Source of the DNA: the human T2T-CHM13v2.0 reference genome, Homo sapiens | Strand: one strand, 5' to 3' | Assembly (NCBI RefSeq): GCF_009914755.1 | Contig: NC_060927.1 | DNA length: 64,000 bases | Shown: one piece after another, positions 1 to 56,209 of the stretch | How positions within the stretch are numbered: the first letter of the stretch is position 1 | How the letters are laid out: the number at the start of each line of letters is the position of its first letter | Translations under genes and position numbers: made by a program | Notes under the pieces: generated by a model | What the model was told of the DNA's origin: nothing | Databases searched by the model: none | What the model saw: only the letters and a program-made list of their open reading frames with translations

Positions 1-649
1 TACTTCTCCCCCTCAAAAACCAACAAAAAGTTTGTTTGTTTCAGGAGAAAAACATGAAATGTTCAGTTGGTCTGCCATTTAAATTAAAAATGAGAACATA
101 ATTCAATACATTCGGTAAATAACATGTATTCTAGTGCCCTATTATGGCCAGTTAAGGAAAGGAGGCAGAATGAAGAAGAGAAAATAAGCAAAGTAGAGAC
201 AATGAGAGGTATACACAGTAGTAAAGGAGAAGGACGCTGGCCTCTCTTCATATAATTGTGTCTCTTTTACTGCTTCTAAAGACTTCTAAAGGTCTGCTGT
301 GTTTTCATTTCTTGATACCTTCTCTTTGGGCCAGAGAATATTAAGCTGAAGATGGAATGTGACCTGTAGATCAGAGATTTACCACCCCTGCTTTGAAGCA
401 GTGTTGGTGTATTCCCACTAAAATAAACCAACTGTATAACATTCCCTGGAACTTAATAAGCACTCAATAAATATTTGTTGAATAAATATAGAAATGAAAA
501 TGCAGAAATCGTACACAGAGTGACTTTTTCTTTAATTTGTTTGGACCTTTATCCTGCATGGAGCAAAATTGGTATTCTAATTCCGAGTGTTGCATCCTTT
601 ATTACTCTATGGCATACTTGAAAATTTCTTAATTTATTGTGGTGTCCTG

Positions 650-13769: not shown

Positions 13770-14900
13770 CCCAACTAGTTTAATGGAATGCGAAAGGAAT
13801 GAATATAAGGTATAGTGCTAAGTAAATTGTTTTGGTTTTGTGTGGTAAGGGAGGAAGAGTTGGGGTCAAAATTAGCACAAATGTAGGGCCTGGGTGGCTG
13901 GGAGAATGTTAAAATACCGTTAGCAAAAACAGAAAGACACAGAGAACAAGCAGGTTTAGCCAAGGCTAGGGGGTGGGAGGACAAATTCAGTATGAGGCGT
14001 AATAGATGGGAAGTTCCACTGAACATCCATGTCATATTTATTAGGCAATCAGAAGTATGGAGCTAGAGGTCAGGAAAGAACTCTAGGACAGAACTTTAGA
14101 AAATTTCCAATACTGAGTTGGTTTTTAAGTCACAGTATTGTTATATATAAGAGATGGAGATGGACAGAGCCTTTATTGTATATATGCCCATTTAAAGATG
14201 GAAAGTGGGGAGAGGACTAGCTTCAAGAGGTTAAAGTTTGGACACTTAAACGTCTTTTAAACAGGATTGAAAATGAGAGGTAGGACAGAGTAAAGATGTG
14301 AGAACATTATGGAAAGGTAGTTTTTGGATCAAGGTAGATAGGCTTTGAGCTTGAAGTACCCAACCTTGACAAGAGTAAAGAAAACAGCAAAAGCATGGAG
14401 ACCTTTCGTCAGAAGTGGGAAGTTGCAATGTGTGTCCCCAAAATCAAGGTCCCTACGAAGATGAGGTGGGCACAGAGTGGCTGCGAGCATGAGGGAGGCA
14501 GAAGAATTTGAAGTAAGAGGTAGCTACCATAAGGAACATGGGCATCTCCAGGGGGTTACAAGGCTGGTCACCAGCAGTGAGGGTGCCGCTGAGGTGGGAT
14601 AGCTTACACGGAAAGAACAGTCATGTTTGGTGGTTTTTCTAGAGCAACATCAGCAGTTGGTATCTGGAGGAGGAGTAATGAATGGTGGGAGGACAGTGAA
14701 AAAGGGAAACTGTCTTCTAAGTGGAGTGTCTGAGCAGGACATCCATGCCAGGGGGAAAAGATATGAGGGAGTCACAAAGAGTAGGTAGACTGAGAAAGGG
14801 AGGAATTTAGGGGCTAGAGGTGACAATGAGGACAGAGAGTGATTGTGCATATCAGTAAGAATGGAATTAGGTTTGGTCTAGGGCGAGGAGTAGATCAATA
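13770..14900 (-). mobile_element. Old L2-like fragment(s)
   Basis: Purine-rich text typical of antisense L2 (e.g. gacaaattcagtatgagg...gaacatccatgtca...aggcaatcagaagtatgga). Confidence 0.5.
14037..14042 (-). terminator. NME9: Candidate poly(A) signal (AATAAA) of the distal NME9 last exon
   Basis: TTTATT on +, ~1.07 kb past the stop at 15107; a second candidate lies at 14172-14177. Confidence 0.45.
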
Positions 14901-15106
14901 TGTAAATGTTTTGGAAACTAAAACACCAGATAAAAATTACCATTCCTAATCTACAGCTAAAATGTGGTTCCCTGTTCTTAATAGATGATATTTTCCCTGA
15001 TCATTGTTAATTTCAACAATATTTTCTTCTCTTCTTGTTTGGCTGAAACATCCTGAGGTTTTCCACTCTCTCATGTTCTAAGGTCAGACTTCTGAATCCT
15101 CTCATT

Positions 15107-15153
15107 TTAGTCTAGGTCAGTGATCTTCAACCTTGGCTGTGTACTGGACTCAC
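15107..15153 (-). CDS. NME9: NME9 alternative terminal coding exon (G)ESSTQPRLKITDLD*
   Basis: Acceptor (t)16-aatctcctcAG at 15154-15155; phase 1 matches the donor at 56073; the peptide matches my recollection of a known NME9 isoform C-terminus. Confidence 0.8.
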
Positions 15154-15310
15154 CTGAGGAGATTAAAAAAAAAAAAAAAATTTAGGTGCCTAGCCCTGAC
15201 CCTGGAGAATCTAATTTAATTGGTCTGCTGTATGGCCTGGACATAGGATTAAAAAAAAAAATCTCCCCAGGTAATTCTTCTGCAAGGACAACCAAGGTTA
15301 AGATCTATTG
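15118..15310. mobile_element. MER5-type hAT-Charlie MITE with perfect 8-bp TSD
   Basis: TIR CAGTGATCTTCAACCTTGG...CCAAGGTTAAGATCTATTG; TSD GTCTAGGT at 15110-15117 and 15311-15318. Confidence 0.9.
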
Positions 15311-16305
15311 GTCTAGGTATTCTCCCAGGTGAGAGTAACGACTCCCATTAATGAGTTGCCCATATTGGGAACTACCTGGTGAGTACAAGAGGACTACCTT
15401 AACCAGGGCTGTATTACAAGTGTGGCTGAGCATATAGACTCTGGAGTCACATGCCTGGGTACGTATCTCAGCTGTGTGATTACAGGAAAGCTCTGTATTA
15501 TCCAGAATAATGCCTACAGAAGAGTGAGGGTTAAATTGGGTAATATAACATGCTTAGCACAGTGCTTGGCACATGGAAGAACTCAACAAATGTGTTTGTT
15601 AATATTTGTGTTGTGATGTCATGAGTACTTTATTCTAATATGAAAAGGCTGTTTTTCAATAGGCCCACACAAGTCAAATTCAGTTTCCTTCACACACTAT
15701 TTATTTTGTATCTAGACATTGATGAAGGAAAATTGCAGGTTATCTTATTTTTAAGTTGAAACAATAAAGCTTCATGATTATAGTGATTATATGTAGCAGC
15801 ACTTCGTGCTATAGTGAAAGATGGCAAGGGTTACTTTTCTAAAAGTTTCAGTCGGTTGGTAAGAAAGTAGCCACAGGGTGGCTCTGTCCTAAGCCCAGAT
15901 TTCATTTTGTGAGGGCTGAGCATGGACTGTGATTTCTTTAGAACCTCACTCTGGAAGGAACCTGCCCAATGAGAGTTCATTTATTTCTTTTCCTTTTTCT
16001 CAAGATTATTTACATAACACCTCTGCAGTACTTATACCATTTAATTTTTGTGTTAAATGTCTTTAAAAATAAACAACATAACCTGCCCCTTACGCCTGTC
16101 ATTCAGCCTGGCAGGTCCTTAGTGGGCTAGACCTACCTTTCTGATGAGCTGCCCGCCCCCAGCGCAAGATGATTGTTTGAGAGGTAAAAACTCTTGCCAA
16201 AAACAACGTTAAACTTTTAATGGATGTTAACATACTTGCATTTACAAGCAGTGAAGTTTGTCACCTTCATGTTGTTATTTATGCAGCATTAACCTTTTTC
16301 TCCAG

Positions 16306-37849: not shown

Positions 37850-40090
37850 GCTTTTTGTCTTATTAAGAGAAGAGAAACTAAAATCCTTCAGTGGCTCCTT
37901 GTTATACCTTGAATAAAGTTCGTATGCCTTTATGATGGCCTGTCAAGTCCTACGTGACCTAACCCATTCATATCCCCAACTTATCTTATTCCTCTCTTCC
38001 TTTGTTCACTACACTGGCCACTTGAAGTTTCTCAAAAAGGCCACGTTCTTTCCTTCCTTGGGACCTTCACACATACTGGCTTCTCTGCCTGGAACACTTT
38101 TCTTCTCTCTGTTTCACCCTTCAAATCTCAGCTGAACTTATACTTTCTTACTGGACTCTTGCCCTTATAGATTATTCCTCATTACTGCATTTTGTTCACT
38201 TCCTTCAGAGCACTTAGCTCAGTTTTAGTGATATATGTTTGTGTGCCTACTGGGTGTCTTTACCACAGCGTAAGTTCCATGAGGGCAGGGACCATGTCAG
38301 CTTTGTGCACAACTGTATATCCACCATGGTGTCTGGCCCTTAGCATATGCTTGGTAAATATTTGTTGAATGAAAACCTTACCACTTCAACCAGGGATTCC
38401 CTTATCTTTCCAATACTAATCCACACTGTATCCATAATCACTTAAAAAGTTTTCCTTAACTTCTCATACCCATCGAGACATACCCATTTCTCTGTTATTC
38501 AAAGACAAAGCCAAACTTCTTTTTATTTTGAGACAGGGTCTCACTCTGTCACCCAGACTAGAGTGCAGTGACGCGATCTTGGCTCACCACAACTTCCACC
38601 TGTAGGTTCAAGCGATTCTCCTGCCTCAGCCTCCTGAGTAGCTGGGATTACAGGCGCGGCACTATTGCCCGGCTAATTTTTGTATTTTTAGAAGAGATGG
38701 GGTTTCACCATGTTGGCCAGGCTGGTCTCAAACTCCTGATCTCAAATGATCCACCTGTCTCGGCCTCCCAAAGTGCTGGGATTACAGGCATGAGCCACTG
38801 CGCCCAGCCTTCAAAGCCAGACTTCTTAAAAGCATCTTTTCTGTACATACTGCCTCCTCCTCTGCCTCTAAAGTCATTTTTTAACCTCCTCTGTTTCACC
38901 TCTACCCCCATCATTCAACTGAAACTTAGGGCCACCAATGACTTCCATGATGCCAAATCCAAAGGATCCTTTTCTCTTTTCATCTTACCCCACTTACAGC
39001 AGACTTCAACCCAGCTGACTATTTCCTCCTCCTGGAAATATCCTTTTCTCTTGGCTTGCGTGACACCATACCTCCCTACCTATCTCTGGACCCTTTTCTC
39101 TTCTCTTCTACACGTGCTCTCCTGAGATCAGCAGATCACAACCTTCATTGTACAATAGGACCTCGTAGGGAGCTTTCAAAGATTACTGCTTTGTCTCCTC
39201 CCTCCCAAGATTCTTATTTAATAGATCTAGGGTTATAGCCTGGGCATCAGGATTTTTTTTTAAGATCACTGGGTGGTTCTTACGTACAGACAGAGTTGAG
39301 AACCATTGCCTTAGGAGAATCTCATCCACCCCCATAGCTTATACTATCATCACTGTGCTGACAATACACTGTAATTTCCAAATGTGTTTCCCAGCCTAGA
39401 CCTCTCTTCCAAACTCTGGACTTACATATCCGCCTGCCCTTTCAGCATCTCCATGTGGCTGTCTGATAGCATCTTGGAATCTATCTTGATTTCTCCAGCT
39501 CTGTCCCCTCATTCACTCAATTTATCAACAAGTCCTATCTGCCCTTCTTCCAAAACTGATCTTGAATCCAATTACTCCTTTTCATCACCACTGCCCCCAC
39601 CCTAGTCAGTCCAAGTCACAGCACCTTATGCCTGATTAACTATATAACAGTATCTTCCTTGACACTTCCTCACTGTCACTCCAATCCCTTCAGCCCAACT
39701 GGTCTTCTAAAAATGTAAATCAGATCTTGTCCCTCCACTGTTTAAATCTTTCAGGGGCTTCCTCTCAACACAGAATGAAATCCAGAGTCCTTACTGTGGC
39801 CTACAAGTTGGCACAATTTGGCTACACCTACTTCTCTGAACAGACAGCTCCTTCTTACTTCAGACCTTTTCAGGAACTTTTTCTCCTGCTTGGAATTTCA
39901 AGCCCCTTGCTCTTTGCACATCTGGCACCTTCCTATTCTTTAAGTCTCTGTTTAAGTATTGCCACCCTCAAAGAGATCTGTTTTGTGCATTCCACCTAAA
40001 TTAAGTTCCCACCCCTCCACCCTCCAATTTTCTCTATCCTCATAGTAATTTGTGTCCTTAAAAAATATTGAATGATGAATAAACTTATGC
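37850..40090 (+). mobile_element. Cluster of L2 fragments with Alu and MER5 insertions
   Basis: Pyrimidine-rich L2 body text and 3' ends (taagttccatgagggcaggga...aaatatttgttgaatgaa). Confidence 0.6.
38519..38809 (-). mobile_element. Alu (AluS-like)
   Basis: Antisense Alu; TSD caaagcca.acttctt. Confidence 0.95.
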
Positions 40091-41502: not shown

Positions 41503-41613
41503 CTGCTTCAGACTTTTAGGTTATAGGAATTGGCTATGGTAGGTCCCCCCAAAAAAAAATCTAAAATGAGATTACCACCATTTTGATTTTTTTTTCTTTT
41601 TCTGTATTAATAG

Positions 41614-41686
41614 GGCCATTCACATGTTAAACTGCAGCTTGCAGCCATGTTTTGTATATCAAACCTCATATGGAATGAAGAGGAAG
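41614..41686 (+). CDS. ARMC8: ARMC8 exon [24 protein letters not shown](G)
   Basis: Long U tract ...taatAG / G|gtaaga; 73 nt. Confidence 0.96.
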
Positions 41687-42159
41687 GTAAGAGATTGGTG
41701 AGATTTGTTTTGAAAAAAATTATGGGAAGAGTGTCTTGCACAGGGAAGCTAGCAGGTGCCCCTGAGATCCTGGGCAGAGGCTCTGTTCTTGGACCATCTG
41801 GCCCAAGCACCCTCTAGAGTTGCCCTGGTATGAGAATCAGTGGAACTAGCCCAAGTCAGCTGGGCAGTCAACACTGAGTGCCCCGTTGGAGCCAACTCTA
41901 TACCAGATTCAAGGAGGGAGAGTGAGAAGTAAGTGACAGTCCCTGCCAGGAGAGAGCTGATGAGGAGGATGGTGAGATGCACTTGAAGAAGGTGAGAGGA
42001 GAGAGTGGGTGGGAGGATGAGCCTTTCGTTTTGAGCAGAGGAAGCACATATGAGGACTACAGGCAGATAAGCATGATGGAGAAGAAGGTGCATTTGTGAG
42101 AAATGAGAAGTGCAATGTGACCAGTGAAGCAGCTAGTCTGTAAGGAGGCCTGTATAGAT

Positions 42160-42430
42160 CAGAGGTTCTTTACTTTGGCTGCATATTAGAATCACCTGGG
42201 AATTTTTACACCAGGCCAATTAAATCAGAATCTCTCGGGGTGGGCTCCAGGCATAAGTGGTTCTTAAAGCTCCCCAGATGATTCCAATATATAGCCAAGG
42301 TAGCAAATACAGGAGAGCAGTGGGTCTCAAGGCTGGGTTGGCTGCATTAGAATCACCTGGGGAAGTTTTTAAAGTGCAGATTTCTGGGCCCCATCCCTAG
42401 AAATTCTGATTCACTGAGTCTAGAGAGAGC
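42160..42430. mobile_element. Two adjacent MER5A-type fragments
   Basis: ggctgcatattagaatcacctggg...aaatcagaatctct..gggtggg..ccaggcat...aagctccccagatgattc, followed by a second ggctgcattagaatcacctgggg. Confidence 0.75.
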
Positions 42431-43111
42431 CAGTATATGAGTGGTCACTGTGGGCTCTTCAGTGGGGAAGACTCCAGGGGATTACTCAGCAGCAGCGCCC
42501 AAAACAAAGTGCAAGAAGGGAAACTGGATTCCGCCCACAGACCTAGATACCACGTACCACTTGTGTACTGGGGAGACAAAGCCACCCTCAAGGAGATGTT
42601 AGTCTAGTTGGAAGATAGAACAGAATGATATGAAATTGGAAGTGCCAGCTGTGCTGAGAGGCAACAAAAAGTGCTGGGAGGACAGAGGAGGGTAGAAGAC
42701 AATAGAAAGGGGAAGATAAGACCTGCTTAGAGTAGTAAGAGCCTGGCCTGGTCTGGCCAGGGCCATGGGTATGTCCTGAAAGAAGTGGTGAAGCTGGGAG
42801 TCAGTGGCAGAGGGCCTTGTACCAGGCTGAAGAATCTCACCTTGACCCTGTAGTCCATGGAGAAATCAGTCCAACTGCAGAACCCAGGATAGACTGCAGG
42901 CAGGATGATCAGGAGGCAGAGAGACGAGTTAGAAGACTGTCAGAGAGTCCAAGCATGAGCGGGTCCAACTACATTGGGAGAGGGTAGAGGACAAGGGGTA
43001 CAGGAGGAGTAGGGAGTGAAGGACACTGGTAAGGCTCTAGATTGTTAATTGTACATCAAAGAGAGCATTTGCCTGGGTCATGTTCCCAGTAACCTGGCTT
43101 TAATCGTTTAG

Positions 43112-43999: not shown

Positions 44000-45520
44000 A
44001 TTCATTCATCAGATATCTCTTTTGAATACCTGCCTTCTGCCAGGCATTGTTTTAGGCACTGGAGATATAATGGTGAATAAAATTGATGAAGTCTTTGCCC
44101 TCGTGTAACTTACATTCTAGTATAGAAGATAGATGATAAGCAAATGAATACGTAACACAGTATCAGGTGATGAGAGGTACCATGAAGAAAAATAAAGCAA
44201 GGTGAAGGAATGGAGAATCAAGAAAATTTATTTTAGGTTAGCTAGTAAAGATCTCTCTGAGGATGACATGATCAGAGACCTGAATGAAATAAGGAAGATT
44301 TCATCTGGGCAAATGCATAGAGGAAGAGTATTACAGACAGGGGTGATAGTGGGTTCAAAGGCCCTGAAGCAGGAGTGAACTTGGTATGTTCAAGAAACAG
44401 CAAGAAGAACAGAGGGCTAATGAAAAATATGGAGAGGGAGAATGCTAATAGGTGGAAGAATCCAGACCATGAAGAGCCTTGTAGGTAAGGTAAGGACTTT
44501 GGCTTTTATTCAGAGTTTAATAGGAAATCATTGGAGACTGTTAAGGAGAGGAGACATTATCTGATTTGAATTCCTTTTTTCCTTTTCCTTTTTCTTTTTT
44601 TCTTTCTTTTCTTTTCTTTCGAGATGGAGTTTCACTCTTGTTGCCCAGGCTGGAGTGCAATGGCGTGATCTTGGCTCACTGAAACCTCTGCCTCCTGAGT
44701 TCAAGTGATTCTCCTGCCTCAGCCTCCCAGGTAGCTGGGATTACAGGCGCCTGCCACCACGCCCAGCTAATTTTTTTGTATTTTTAGTAGAGACAGGGTT
44801 TTACCATGTTGGCCAGGCTGGTCTCAAACTTCTGACCTCAGATCATCCACCCACCTCGGCTTCCCAAAGTGCTGGGATGACAGGCGTGAGCCACCACGCC
44901 GGGCCCTGATTTGAATTTTTAAAAGATCACTCTGGTGACTTACAGAGAACCATCTGTAGGAGGGCAAGAATGGAGGCACAGAGACCAGTTAAAGGCCATT
45001 GTAATAATGTCGGTAAGGGAGTGGGGGGATTAGTATTGGAAGTATTGAGAAGTGGTTGGATTCAGGATTTAATCTGAAGATAAGCACCAACGGGACTTAC
45101 TCACAGATTCAGTACAGGATGTTAAAGAGAGGAAAGGAAAATGTCTAGGGTTTTAGCCTGAGCAACTGGACAGAGGGTGTTGCCATATACCAAGATGGTG
45201 AGGAATATAGAAGTGGGTTGCGGTAGGGAGCATCAAGAGTTCTTGTTTGGGTATGCCAGCGTTAAGATGCATATTAGATATCCAAGGGACTTGGAAGAGC
45301 AGGGCTATAAATCTGAATGGTATTTAAAGCCATGGAGCTGGATGAAGTCTCTTAGAGCAAGTAAAAAGAGAGAAAGGAGGACTAAGGACCAAGATCTAGA
45401 GTCCCTCCAGCATTTAGGCAGTGATGAGAAAGATGCAGCAAAGGAGCAGAAGGAACAGCTAGTGAGGCAGGCAGAGACTCAGGCGCATAAGGTGTCCAGA
45501 AAACAAAGGAAAAAGATGCC
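44000..45520 (-). mobile_element. L2 (antisense), interrupted by an Alu
   Basis: ttcattcatc...tgccaggcattgttttaggcactggagata... is the antisense L2 3' end, followed by purine-rich body. Confidence 0.75.
44575..44906 (-). mobile_element. Alu (AluS-like)
   Basis: Antisense Alu; TSD ctgatttgaatt. Confidence 0.95.
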
Positions 45521-50945: not shown

Positions 50946-53582
50946 CTTCTAAAAAGGAGTCTGTTTTCCAAATGTCTAGAACATTAGGAAACATCAGAAG
51001 ATAATGTGTACACGCTTTTGGAACCTGTGATTCTTGGTAAATGAAGGGCTGGGAAGTGGCTTTGCATTTCAGAGTGGGACCCAGTGCCTTAAGGTAAGTG
51101 TGGTTCCCAGAGGCATCTGCAGCAGTCTGGGGACCCCTCTCTTTTTGGCCTCCTTCTGAAGGCCAGCAGACCCTTCACAGGTGGCCACTCCCAGCCACAA
51201 GATATCCCATCCCCAATATCATGTCCACCCCCTCCATCCTCTTCTCCTTAGGTATGCCCCATCTCCACTACCACCAGCTTGCATCTCCACTACCACAGTA
51301 TGCAAGAGCTTGCTATCCCTCTGCAAGGACACACAGGTGCTCTTCGTCTACTACGCACTGCCACCTTTTCCCATCTCTGAATTGTAGGCACATCTCCTAT
51401 CTCAAGGCCTCACTGGAAACAAAGCCAAGGACACCTGCGCCAGAGTGGCGGGAGGATGATGAGGTGGCTAGCAAGAGAGGGAATAATCATGGTGGGAACC
51501 TCTGAGAGGACCCAAGGTAAGGCGAAGAGAGTAGGAGCAGGGCCAAGCAGGCCCCTGTTTCCCATAACTACCACAGGAAAACTTGGAAGTGAGGTCTAAG
51601 GAGGGAAGGGGGACTCCCACCCCAGATCTTGATGGAGGGCTGACAGAACGGTTCCAATTTCTTGCCACCTGGGGTAGGAACTGGTGCTGTCCCCATCCTG
51701 CCCCTTGCCTGTTTACTGGGCAGAGAGGCACATGTTTATTTCCAGCATGAGAGAAGGTCCAGGATCTGGCTTTAGGGAAGGCTGAGGGAACCCCCCAAGG
51801 GCCACTGAGTGGACTACTAAGCCACCTTTTCTCTATCTCTGCAGCCCCTGGCTCCTGGCTTTGGCAAGCAATCTGCCCTCAGGCTGAGTGGAGGTCCAGA
51901 GCCAGTCCTTAAAACCACCCTCCTTGACTTCATGGAGCCCAGCCTGCCCTCCTCGTCAGGCACTCACACCCAGGAGCCGAGGGATCTTAAAGCCAAAAAC
52001 AGCACCCATCCTTTACTTCCATATTTGCTTCTGTTGTGTGAAACCAGGCCTAGGGTCTCCGCCAATGAGTTCCATCCTCTGGGAGTGGGCTGATATTTGA
52101 GCCACTCTCGGGAACCCCCTTACACCCCATTCCCCTGTTCCTTATGCCATGAAACTTGTGGACTCTTAGAGATGCCCTGCAATGCTGAACCCACAGCATC
52201 CCTGAGTCACCAGTAATGGGAGGAAGGGGCATGTCACCATTCCTCCCACTCCTGCCCCATCACCTAGTGCCCCACTTTGCTTTACCACTGCCCTGCCCAG
52301 CTACTTCATCCATCACTGACACAAGAACACTCCCCGCCGACAGGCTCAGTTCCCCAACCTCATTTTCCCCTCTCTCCCCTGCTTTGGGAGGTCCTGGTGG
52401 CTCCATCTCTCATCTCACCAATGTTGGAAGATCCTTGGCTTCCCAGATTCTGGGGAGATCAGATGGCTGTCAGCTGGGTGCACCCCCTCCAAGTAGCTCA
52501 TTCAGAGCCACACACACCTGTGGTGTGGAAGCCCAGGCATAGGGCTTCTCCAAGTCGTTTGCCACTCGTGAAGTGGGCACAGACCATATGGGCCCCACTC
52601 TTGAGCCCACTCCCAAAGGGAAGAGCACAGCCCCATGGTGGGCTGTGAGTCTGGGGATCTGGAATAGTGCATCCAGCTTCCTGACAGGTCCTGTCAGTGA
52701 GGGCTCTGTTGGGCACATTGAGATCCTGTACAGGTTCCGATGAGCACTGTGGACATGTGTGTTTCCATCCAGGGGTGGCACGAGGTCCTGGGAAGGACAG
52801 TGGCCTTAAACAGTAGGGCCTACTGAAGGTCACTGGCCTTGGTTCCCAACTGTGGGGACTGACTTATCCGTGTGTCCCCTGAGCACAGAGTGTGTTGTGG
52901 TAGGCTGACGAAGTGTGATGCACCCACGAAAATGTCCTCTGGGAGCTAACTGCCCATTTAAAGAACCTCAAGTCATGGACAAAACCAGCAAGGAGGAAGA
53001 CGCTGGCATTTGCTTCGTGGTGTAGAAAATGGCCTTCTCCTCAGATAGGAAAAAGTATGCCGGCACTTGGCAAATTTACAAATAAAGTCGTTAGAGGGGG
53101 TGGCATTGTGTGCTAATAATTCCCAAGTGGTCATAATAGCTACTTTTTACTGAAATCCTGTGTCCCTCCAGGGAAGAACTGCAGAGGGATGGCTAAGCCA
53201 GGCAATTCAGTGGGAGCTGAAGGCAACCTGGCCCCACTAGGAGCTCTCAGCTTTTAAATTTAAGTGTCAGCCAGAATCAGAAGCCAGAGAAATGGGGGAG
53301 GGATGCGTCAAGAAAATTAGATGAACCCTGGTTCCAAATTTAATGTCTGAGCATTGCTTTATGAACATGCCCTGGTAATGGAGAACTGCAGATGGGGAAA
53401 TCTGGCAGCATTAAATGACTGTTGGTGTGACTTGGGCAGGCAGTGTGAGGAAGCATTTGGAGCCTATTTATATCTGCCTCGGCATCAGTGTGCCTGGAAG
53501 TGTCATAGTCAATCTTGCTGCACTGTTTTCAAGCTCATGGTTACCAAATTAAGTTCTAAAATTGTTTAATTCATAAGGTAGA

Positions 53583-53588
53583 TTTATT
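53583..53588 (-). terminator. NME9: Candidate proximal NME9 poly(A) signal
   Basis: TTTATT on +, ~620 nt past the NME9 stop. Confidence 0.4.
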
Positions 53589-53662
53589 GTTGGGGAAACA
53601 CCATCTCATATAACCCAGTATCCTCTGAGATGACACTTATATCTCACAACAGGATGTAATAA

Positions 53663-54070
<408 letters not shown>

Positions 54071-54205
54071 ATATTATTTTCATTGTCTACAAAAGACAGC
54101 TAAACCAAAAAGTATTGGTACTCAAAAGAGTAAGTTCCGATTCCGGAGGTCTGTTTTGTGCAGTAGACCCCTGGTCACGTGCTCTGGAAGAGCAGCACAG
54201 CCATC

Positions 54206-54270
54206 TCAATCCACATCCTCAGGAAAGCAAAGCGCCTCAGTGGGCCCCGCTGTTGCTTCAGCCTCACCGC
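54206..54270 (-). CDS. NME9: NME9 proximal last coding exon (G)GEAEATAGPTEALCFPEDVD*
   Basis: catcccacAG acceptor, phase 1, TGA at 54208-54206. Confidence 0.92.
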
Positions 54271-56072: not shown

Positions 56073-56209
56073 CCTGAGGGGCTTCTGTATCTTTGTCTGA
56101 AAATTTCAAACTGGGGAAGAGCAATGCCAGTTCTCTGTCAGCATCTTCTCTGTCCCGGCTTCCATGGACGGCATTGAAGGGCATTTCTGTGCCGTACTGA
56201 GCTCGGAGA
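56073..56209 (-). CDS. NME9: NME9 exon (S)LRAQYGTEMPFNAVHGSRD...DTEAPQ (NDK phospho-His motif)
   Basis: gttcccAG / CAGG|gtaagt; 137 nt; NAVHGS motif. Confidence 0.95.

What the first reader, a model, noticed from the sequence alone, without database searches (positions are those of the whole stretch)
15107..15318. NME9 alternative C-terminus built from a MER5 hAT transposon, its TIR and its target-site duplication
Seen: on -, the MER5 internal A16 run (15165-15180 on +) supplies the polypyrimidine tract and the AG lies at 15155-15154. The coding segment (G)ESSTQPRLKITDLD reads through the left TIR and the 8-bp TSD GTCTAGGT, then stops at TAA 15109-15107 immediately outside the TSD. Phase 1 matches the NME9 donor at 56073. 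The peptide matches my memory of an annotated NME9 isoform. Inference: exonisation of a DNA transposon, with inclusion probably tuned by the length of the A run.
Basis: partly seen in the sequence, partly recalled or inferred. Interest (0 to 1): 0.7.

Follow-up and report, generated by a model that had tools for sequence, protein, structure and literature searches.

The report
Transposon-built alternative tail of NME9
An old DNA transposon lying inside the ARMC8 gene supplies the splice site and the last 15 codons of an already annotated alternative ending of the cilia gene NME9, which is likely a minor, near-neutral by-product of read-through rather than a new function.

Summary
Every coordinate checks out. 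A 193-bp palindromic hAT-type element (15118-15310) with a perfect 8-bp target-site duplication supplies the U16 tract, the acceptor and 15 codons of NME9's distal last exon; the stop abuts the duplication. The exon is already in RefSeq and the tail is in public protein records (5 of 121 NME9 clusters examined). The acceptor is a family-built CAG|GT made usable by T-run expansion (16 T versus at most 11 in 30 other copies). The tail starts after the NDK domain, NME9 tails vary widely among mammals, and its conservation in monkeys fits neutrality. A-run tuning is untested and probably not the limiting step. One lead: both tails end D-hydrophobic-D (7 of 3942 random acceptors). Verdict: real, an ordinary kind of exonisation, neat anatomy.

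The parts
15118..15310 (.). Palindromic non-autonomous hAT-type element (MER5 family, MER5B-like by recall), 193 bp
   Evidence: dispersed copies
15110..15117 (.). Left 8-bp target-site duplication; on the minus strand it codes most of the last three residues
15311..15318 (.). Right 8-bp target-site duplication, identical to the left
15165..15180 (-). U16 polypyrimidine tract (A16 on +), predicted unpaired in the element's hairpin
15181..15185 (-). Candidate branch point region about 29 nt upstream of the acceptor (inferred from the sequence only)
   Evidence: sequence
15154..15156 (-). CAG acceptor of the distal NME9 last exon, predicted fully base-paired with the opposite arm
   Evidence: hub annotation exon 14003-15153
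15148..15153 (-). Consensus donor half-site at the exon's first six bases; the junction reconstitutes a 5' splice site
   Evidence: 9 of 9 consensus positions in pre-mRNA, 8 of 9 after splicing
15110..15153 (-). Coding part of the distal exon (completes Gly, then 14 residues)
15107..15109 (-). Stop codon TAA, in flanking DNA directly outside the duplication
14003..15106 (-). 3' UTR of the distal exon, 1.1 kb; an L2 origin was suspected but not shown
   Evidence: hub annotation; inconclusive
14037..14042 (-). AATAAA 34 nt before the annotated end; downstream DNA not A-rich, so a likely true cleavage site
15251..15261 (+). A11 run in the other arm; leaves the ARMC8-sense copy of the acceptor motif without a pyrimidine tract (8 of 20)
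56073..56209 (-). Penultimate NME9 coding exon whose phase-1 donor splices to three alternative last exons
   Evidence: hub annotation
53565..54270 (-). Proximal (main) NME9 last exon with its poly(A) signal at 53588-53583; must be skipped for the distal exon to be used
   Evidence: hub annotation

Best explanation
A MER5-type transposon copy supplies the acceptor and 15 codons of an annotated distal last exon of NME9, and the resulting isoform is likely a low-level, near-neutral product of read-through transcription. Shown: the family carries a CAG|GT motif in each arm; in this copy the short T tract before it has grown to 16 and no other AG lies within 34 nt upstream, which makes it one of the two best acceptor-like sites in the 41 kb after the donor; frame, stop and a poly(A) signal are in place; the NDK domain is left whole. 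Inferred: when the proximal last exon (12 of 20 pyrimidines) is skipped, the transcript is not cleaved at 53588, polymerase runs antisense through ten ARMC8 exons, and the free donor at 56073 is captured by this site. Inferred: use is kept low by the hairpin that pairs the AG and by the donor at the exon start. The stop lies in the last exon, so the message would escape junction-dependent decay and could be translated, swapping a poorly constrained 21-residue tail for a 15-residue one.
For: Family comparison: AG at the same register in 17 of 30 copies, AG|GT in 10 of 30; longest T run median 4, maximum 11, versus 16 here; pyrimidines maximum 17 of 20 versus 18. An exact pattern for a T10+ tract with an intact arm found 3 sites in the genome, this being one. 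Two nearer same-family arms on the same strand keep CAG|GT but have 13 and 10 of 20 pyrimidines and are not annotated acceptors (hub table). 2 of 1372 minus-strand YAG sites in the intron have at least 18 of 20 pyrimidines and no AG within 20 nt; this is the U-rich one. NDK domain ends at 236 of 263, tail starts at 249. 38 distinct C-terminal hexamers among 121 NME9 clusters; the proximal tail is cut to 11 residues in New World monkeys. Tail changes: 0 of 14 in Cercocebus, 2 of 14 in Aotus; neutral expectation about 2.1 and 3.6 with assumed divergences, P 0.13 and 0.30. The tail occurs only on 240-263 aa backbones that also lack part of the thioredoxin fold; the chain deposited with a solved structure (8J07) is the 330-aa form.
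Against: No expression data were available, so 'minor' is inferred. The frame and stop are kept in apes, an Old World and a New World monkey, slightly better than the neutral mean. Cluster P0004 has 38 members that I could not see one by one. A second human record (P0121) has the same 14 residues on a differently spliced backbone, so the exon may have been captured more than once. A 2009 survey gives human NME9 a 67.9-kb span that fits the distal form. The D-L-D ending resembles the conserved proximal ending. Both duplications are perfect, whereas 0 of 13 comparison copies with both ends recognisable had 8 of 8 (crude boundaries).
Confidence: 0.7

Rival explanations
1. Functional exaptation: the transposon end and its duplication re-create the acidic D-hydrophobic-D C-terminus of the ancestral NME9 tail, so the distal exon would be a working substitute tail, for example for a carboxylate-clamp (TPR-type) partner or a C-end degradation signal (these motif classes are recalled, not tested).
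For: Proximal tails end EDVD, EDMD, VDAD, KNVD or KNMD in catarrhines, colugo, squirrels, aye-aye, elephants and manatee; the distal tail ends TDLD; 7 of 3942 random phase-1 acceptors in the window give such an end; none of the 30 other copies read in this frame, as far as printed (first 40 residues), shows it. New World monkey records with the proximal exon lose this ending while the Aotus distal tail keeps it.
Against: The pattern was chosen after seeing it. The hAT target preference NTCTAGAN (PMC2836564) itself favours x-L-D/E in this frame. 79 of 121 clusters lack the motif, so it is dispensable. The Aotus distal and the other New World monkey proximal records come from different genera. 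No partner is known.
Confidence: 0.08
2. Recursive-splice site: the acceptor is a ratchet point, and the annotated transcript is the part-spliced product that is polyadenylated before the reconstituted donor is used for a further downstream acceptor.
For: The site matches the donor consensus at 9 of 9 positions before and 8 of 9 after splicing, as good as any of 13 annotated donors in the window (6-8 of 9); the other two last exons give 4 of 9. The +5 G is found in 0 of 30 other copies, and Aotus has D for E at that codon, so the strong donor seems to be a catarrhine gain.
Against: No NME9 exon is annotated beyond 14003 (hub table); the exon has its own poly(A) signal; 3.6% of human exons reconstitute a donor and most are included because the exon junction complex blocks re-splicing (PMC6224609, passages). 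A single T-to-G change explains the match.
Confidence: 0.1
3. One reading: inclusion is a regulated quantity set by the length of the A run, which would vary among people and primates.
For: The run is the feature that separates this copy from its family; long mononucleotide runs are mutable (general knowledge).
Against: No allele or RNA data were seen; no listed paper held NME9 together with sQTL, exonisation or transposable. Sixteen U is longer than the tract at any other of the 20 acceptors listed, so a change of a few bases probably matters little (inference); upstream steps are more likely limiting.
Confidence: 0.07
4. The overlap matters, not the peptide: the distal isoform marks antisense transcription through ARMC8 that would interfere with ARMC8 expression or isoform choice in ciliated cells.
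For: The 40.9-kb intron covers ten ARMC8 exons on the opposite strand (hub table).
Against: No expression data; none of 5 papers holding both gene names has such a theme in title or abstract start; the mature exon overlaps no ARMC8 exon.
Confidence: 0.05

Closest known systems
MER5 family of non-autonomous hAT elements (listed under hAT in Repbase review PMC5753468, table seen)
   Same: About 180-190 bp, palindromic, inverted termini, 8-bp duplication with central TA, many dispersed copies
   Different: This copy has two expanded A runs and a +5 G after the arm's AG; subfamily name rests on recall
Exonisation of transposed elements (Sela et al. 2007, PMC2394776, passages; Piriyapongsa et al. 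2007, PMC2203978, passages)
   Same: Intronic repeat supplies an alternative splice site; DNA repeats exonise at about 0.07% of intronic copies; coding function usually doubtful
   Different: Last exon rather than cassette; the pyrimidine tract is an internal run grown after insertion, not an antisense poly(A) tail as in Alu; the duplication itself is coding; the element sits in another gene's intron 41 kb from the donor
MER58A-derived 3' splice site of a COL4A5 pseudoexon (PMC7951965, passages)
   Same: A short hAT element supplies the acceptor and branch region
   Different: That case needs a disease mutation and is an internal pseudoexon; this one is fixed in simians
Annotated RS-exons (Blazquez et al. 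2018, PMC6224609, passages)
   Same: Exon begins with a donor half-site and reconstitutes a 5' splice site
   Different: Terminal exon with no competing downstream donor or known next exon; no evidence of use
NME9/TXNDC6/Txl-2 splice isoforms (reviews PMC13256974, PMC10470845, passages)
   Same: Same gene; several isoforms described
   Different: The passages seen do not discuss the last exon or a transposon origin; the primary papers were not held

Membership tests
hAT non-autonomous element | 8-bp target-site duplication | tested here: met
   8 of 8 identical
hAT non-autonomous element | Target preference NTCTAGAN with central TA | tested here: met
   5 of 6 defined positions and the central TA; motif from PMC2836564
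hAT non-autonomous element | Terminal inverted repeats | tested here: met
   17 of 20 aligned columns; hairpin z -2.74
hAT non-autonomous element | Dispersed copies, too short to code a transposase | tested here: met
   9 other loci by DNA search, 58 exact matches to a 19-nt arm motif versus 0 control; 193 bp
MER5 (MER5B) | Best match to the curated subfamily consensus | not testable with these tools
   No repeat library; name and 178-bp length recalled; my profile has 178 positions
TE exonisation | Splice site lies inside the element and is used by a transcript | tested here: met
   Acceptor at 15154 within 15118-15310; hub RefSeq exon 14003-15153; proteins P0004, P0121
TE exonisation | Inclusion level and translated product | not testable with these tools
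   No RNA-seq or proteomics access
Exapted (functional) TE coding sequence | Purifying selection on the codons | tested here: inconclusive
   0 and 2 changes in 14 residues; P 0.13 and 0.30 under assumed neutral divergences; two genera only, models probably projected
RS-exon | Junction reconstitutes a strong 5' splice site | tested here: met
   8 of 9 consensus positions by simple count; the MaxEntScan threshold of 5.52 could not be computed
RS-exon | The reconstituted donor is used in a second splicing step | not testable with these tools
   No annotated downstream exon; no lariat or junction data
L2 LINE origin of the 3' UTR and poly(A) signal | Similarity to other L2 copies or L2 ORF2 | tested here: inconclusive
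   0 Pfam hits for 11 ORFs, no DNA hit but itself, best pairwise E 0.74, no protein hit

The most novel reading that the evidence does not exclude
A transposon's terminal repeat and its own target-site duplication re-created, by chance, the acidic D-hydrophobic-D end of the ancestral NME9 tail, giving simians a working second C-terminus that is the only source of that motif in New World monkeys, and catarrhines later gained a recursive donor at the exon start that damps it.
Probability: 0.06. Interest if true: 0.65.

Novelty: new member of a known kind. Interest (0 to 1): 0.27.

Why it matters
As it stands it is a tidy teaching case: acceptor, tract, codons and duplication of one small DNA transposon make a whole protein ending, and the family's built-in AG|GT arms show why MER5-type copies are latent splice sites that one T-run expansion can switch on. 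It also flags that a 263-aa record of NME9 carries a transposon-derived tail and lacks part of the thioredoxin fold, which matters for anyone using that clone. It would matter more only if the tail proved translated and selected.

Tried and rejected
L2 origin of the 3' UTR and poly(A) signal: suspected from recall; DNA searches found only the locus itself, 11 ORFs gave no Pfam family, a six-frame search gave 8 other places all at E above 1, a profile from 7 of them picked up Alus only, a profile from 6 related copies missed the region, and a protein search gave nothing. Left open. Internal-priming artefact for the distal end: rejected (AATAAA present, no A-rich tract). Use of the element as an ARMC8-strand acceptor: not supported (8 of 20 pyrimidines; no annotated exon). 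Domain truncation by the tail swap: rejected. P0121's upstream junction could not be mapped by eye to a GT donor. SOS splicing (PMC12779559): a find for MER, hAT, MITE gave 0 hits; not pursued. Literature: searches NME9+isoform, MER5+exonization+splice site+DNA transposon (13), TXNDC6+transposable element+exon (24; 0 papers), MER5B/MER5A/Charlie/TSD (28), Txl-2+splic+colon cancer (36), NME9+ARMC8 (49), alternative last exon+TE+MER5A (58), NME9+transposable+sQTL+exoniz (62) showed no paper on this exon's transposon origin. Supplements held for PMC2394776 (1 file) and PMC2203978 (2 files) had no TXNDC6 entry; larger gene lists not held, and those of PMC4028971, may list it. No structure or complex prediction was run: a 15-residue tail outside the domain with no candidate partner would not be informative.

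Full report
Observation. The element spans 15118-15310 between identical 8-mers at 15110-15117 and 15311-15318; the A16 run is at 15165-15180; the minus-strand AG is at 15155-15154; the donor at 56073 is phase 1; the spliced frame gives 15 residues and stops at 15109-15107, directly outside the left duplication. The ends align as inverted repeats at 17 of 20 columns. The hub's RefSeq table already lists exon 14003-15153 for NME9, so the intron is 40.9 kb and runs antisense over ten ARMC8 exons.

The element. A DNA search of the genome gave 9 other loci at 69-82% identity; a 19-nt arm motif from one of them had 58 exact matches against 0 for the control, of which 30 were fetched. A profile from 16 of those 30 (those where both ends could be placed) has 178 positions and matches the element end to end on both strands, with no hit in the reversed window. 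The duplication fits the hAT preference NTCTAGAN at 5 of 6 defined positions (PMC2836564, passages). MER5A and MER5B are listed as hAT elements (PMC5753468, table passage). The subfamily label MER5B is my recall and was not tested.

How the acceptor arose. In the 30 copies the same register has AG in 17, YAG in 14 and AG|GT in 10, so the acceptor dinucleotide is inherited from the family (copies were picked on sequence downstream of this site). What is special is upstream: longest T run 16 versus median 4 and maximum 11; 18 of 20 pyrimidines versus 10-17; no other AG for 34 nt, whereas 13 of 30 copies have one within 14 nt. An exact pattern asking for ten or more T before an intact arm found 3 sites in the genome, including this one (a lower bound). 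Between the donor and this site there are 1372 minus-strand YAG sites; 2 pass 18 of 20 pyrimidines and a 20-nt AG-free zone, and this is the U-rich one. Two nearer arms of the same family (42356, 42195) keep CAG|GT but have 13 and 10 pyrimidines and are not annotated acceptors. On the ARMC8 strand the mirror motif is preceded by A11 and scores 8 of 20. The proximal NME9 acceptor has 12 of 20.

The minus-strand RNA folds into a hairpin (-65.9 kcal/mol, z -2.74, 2 of 200 shuffles as good) in which 15164-15150, including the AG, is predicted paired while the U16 stays open. And the exon begins with a donor: the site matches the donor consensus at 9 of 9 positions in the pre-mRNA and 8 of 9 after splicing, against 6-8 for 13 annotated donors and 4 for the two other last-exon junctions (simple match count, not MaxEntScan). 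The +5 G is absent from all 30 other copies, and Aotus has Asp where catarrhines have Glu at that codon, so it is likely a catarrhine change. Exons that reconstitute a donor are common, 3.6% of human exons, and are mostly protected by the exon junction complex (PMC6224609, passages).

The 3' end. AATAAA at 14042-14037 lies 34 nt before the annotated end and the DNA after it is not A-rich, so the end is likely real. I suspected from recall that the UTR is an L2 remnant; six tests left this unproven.

The protein. A search with the penultimate exon found 275 proteins among 284 candidates, of which 120 were listed and read; a search on the last 40 residues of P0004 gave 59 of 61 candidates and one new record. 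The tail is in 5 of these 121 clusters: P0004 (263 aa, named for chimpanzee and Homininae, 38 members not seen singly), P0017 (Cercocebus, identical), P0082 and P0083 (Aotus, 13 of 15) and P0121 (human, 240 aa, with an upstream junction I could not map to a GT donor). The monkey records are probably projections of the human model (inference), so they show an intact frame, not use. None of the listed representatives named 'isoform X' carries the tail. With assumed neutral divergences of 6.5% and 11.5%, 0 and 2 changes have P 0.13 and 0.30: no sign of constraint, low power. The NDK domain ends at 236 and the tail starts at 249. P0004 also lacks the first 22 residues and about 39 residues of the thioredoxin region relative to the 330-aa chain of PDB 8J07. 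NME9 tails are loose: 38 distinct final hexamers in 121 clusters, and New World monkey records with the proximal exon end after 11 residues.

One lead for function. Proximal tails end in D/N-hydrophobic-D in catarrhines, colugo, aye-aye, squirrels, elephants and manatee, and the distal tail ends D-L-D, read from the duplication. 42 of 121 clusters have such an end, and 7 of 3942 random phase-1 acceptors in the window would give one. The pattern is post hoc, the hAT target preference favours part of it, and many lineages lack it, so I give it under 0.1.

What is known. [quoted passage not shown] An ARMC8 paper notes that NME9's last exon is partly nested in ARMC8, without saying which exon (PMC6680376, passages). 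DNA repeats exonise at the ordinary rate of about 0.07% of intronic copies (PMC2394776, passages), exonised non-autonomous elements have low coding potential on average (PMC2203978, passages), and a short hAT element has been shown to supply an acceptor before (PMC7951965, passages). Eight searches showed no paper on this exon's origin; the primary Txl-2 papers were not held, and gene lists in supplements that I could not see may include it.

Verdict. Real and correctly described; the exon is annotated; the kind of event is well known. Most likely a minor simian read-through isoform enabled by T-run expansion in a family-built acceptor (0.70). Rivals: recursive-splice intermediate (0.10), functional tail mimic (0.08), A-run-tuned regulation (0.07), antisense control of ARMC8 (0.05). 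Interest 0.27.

Noticed in passing
window 41607-42968 (-): The middle NME9 last exon has no AATAAA or ATTAAA and ends just before an A-rich stretch that is the reverse complement of the pyrimidine tract of ARMC8 exon 41614; its annotated end is likely an internal-priming artefact. It would code a 9-residue tail that was not seen among 120 proteins.
   Followed up: partly
window 42160-42307 and 42318-42445: Two adjacent MER5-type copies inside that middle exon's UTR, both with intact CAG|GT arms on the NME9 strand but short pyrimidine tracts.
   Followed up: partly
window 39130-39308: Another full-length, older-looking copy of the same family (E 6e-15).
   Followed up: no
window 42847-42958 (-), 44804-45288 (-), 39471-39810 (+): Matches to a profile of an L2-like dispersed repeat (label recalled); the first covers the start of the middle NME9 last exon, which may also be repeat-derived.
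   Followed up: no
window 15319-15337 (+): A second CAG|GTGAG motif just outside the right duplication, on the ARMC8 strand about 1 kb before exon 16306; not part of the element profile.
   Followed up: no
window 15428-15600: MIR-like sequence by eye (recalled, not tested).
   Followed up: no
proteins P0030-P0068 (New World monkeys): The proximal NME9 tail stops after 11 residues in marmoset, squirrel monkey and capuchin records, against 21 in catarrhines and aye-aye.
   Followed up: partly
proteins P0054, P0062, P0075, P0086, P0087, P0092, P0100: Several rodents have their own unrelated NME9 tails after the same donor, suggesting repeated capture of distal acceptors.
   Followed up: no
L007, L025, L031, L036: Several MER5-type copies carry Alu-like insertions at their internal A/T runs (by eye).
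   Followed up: no
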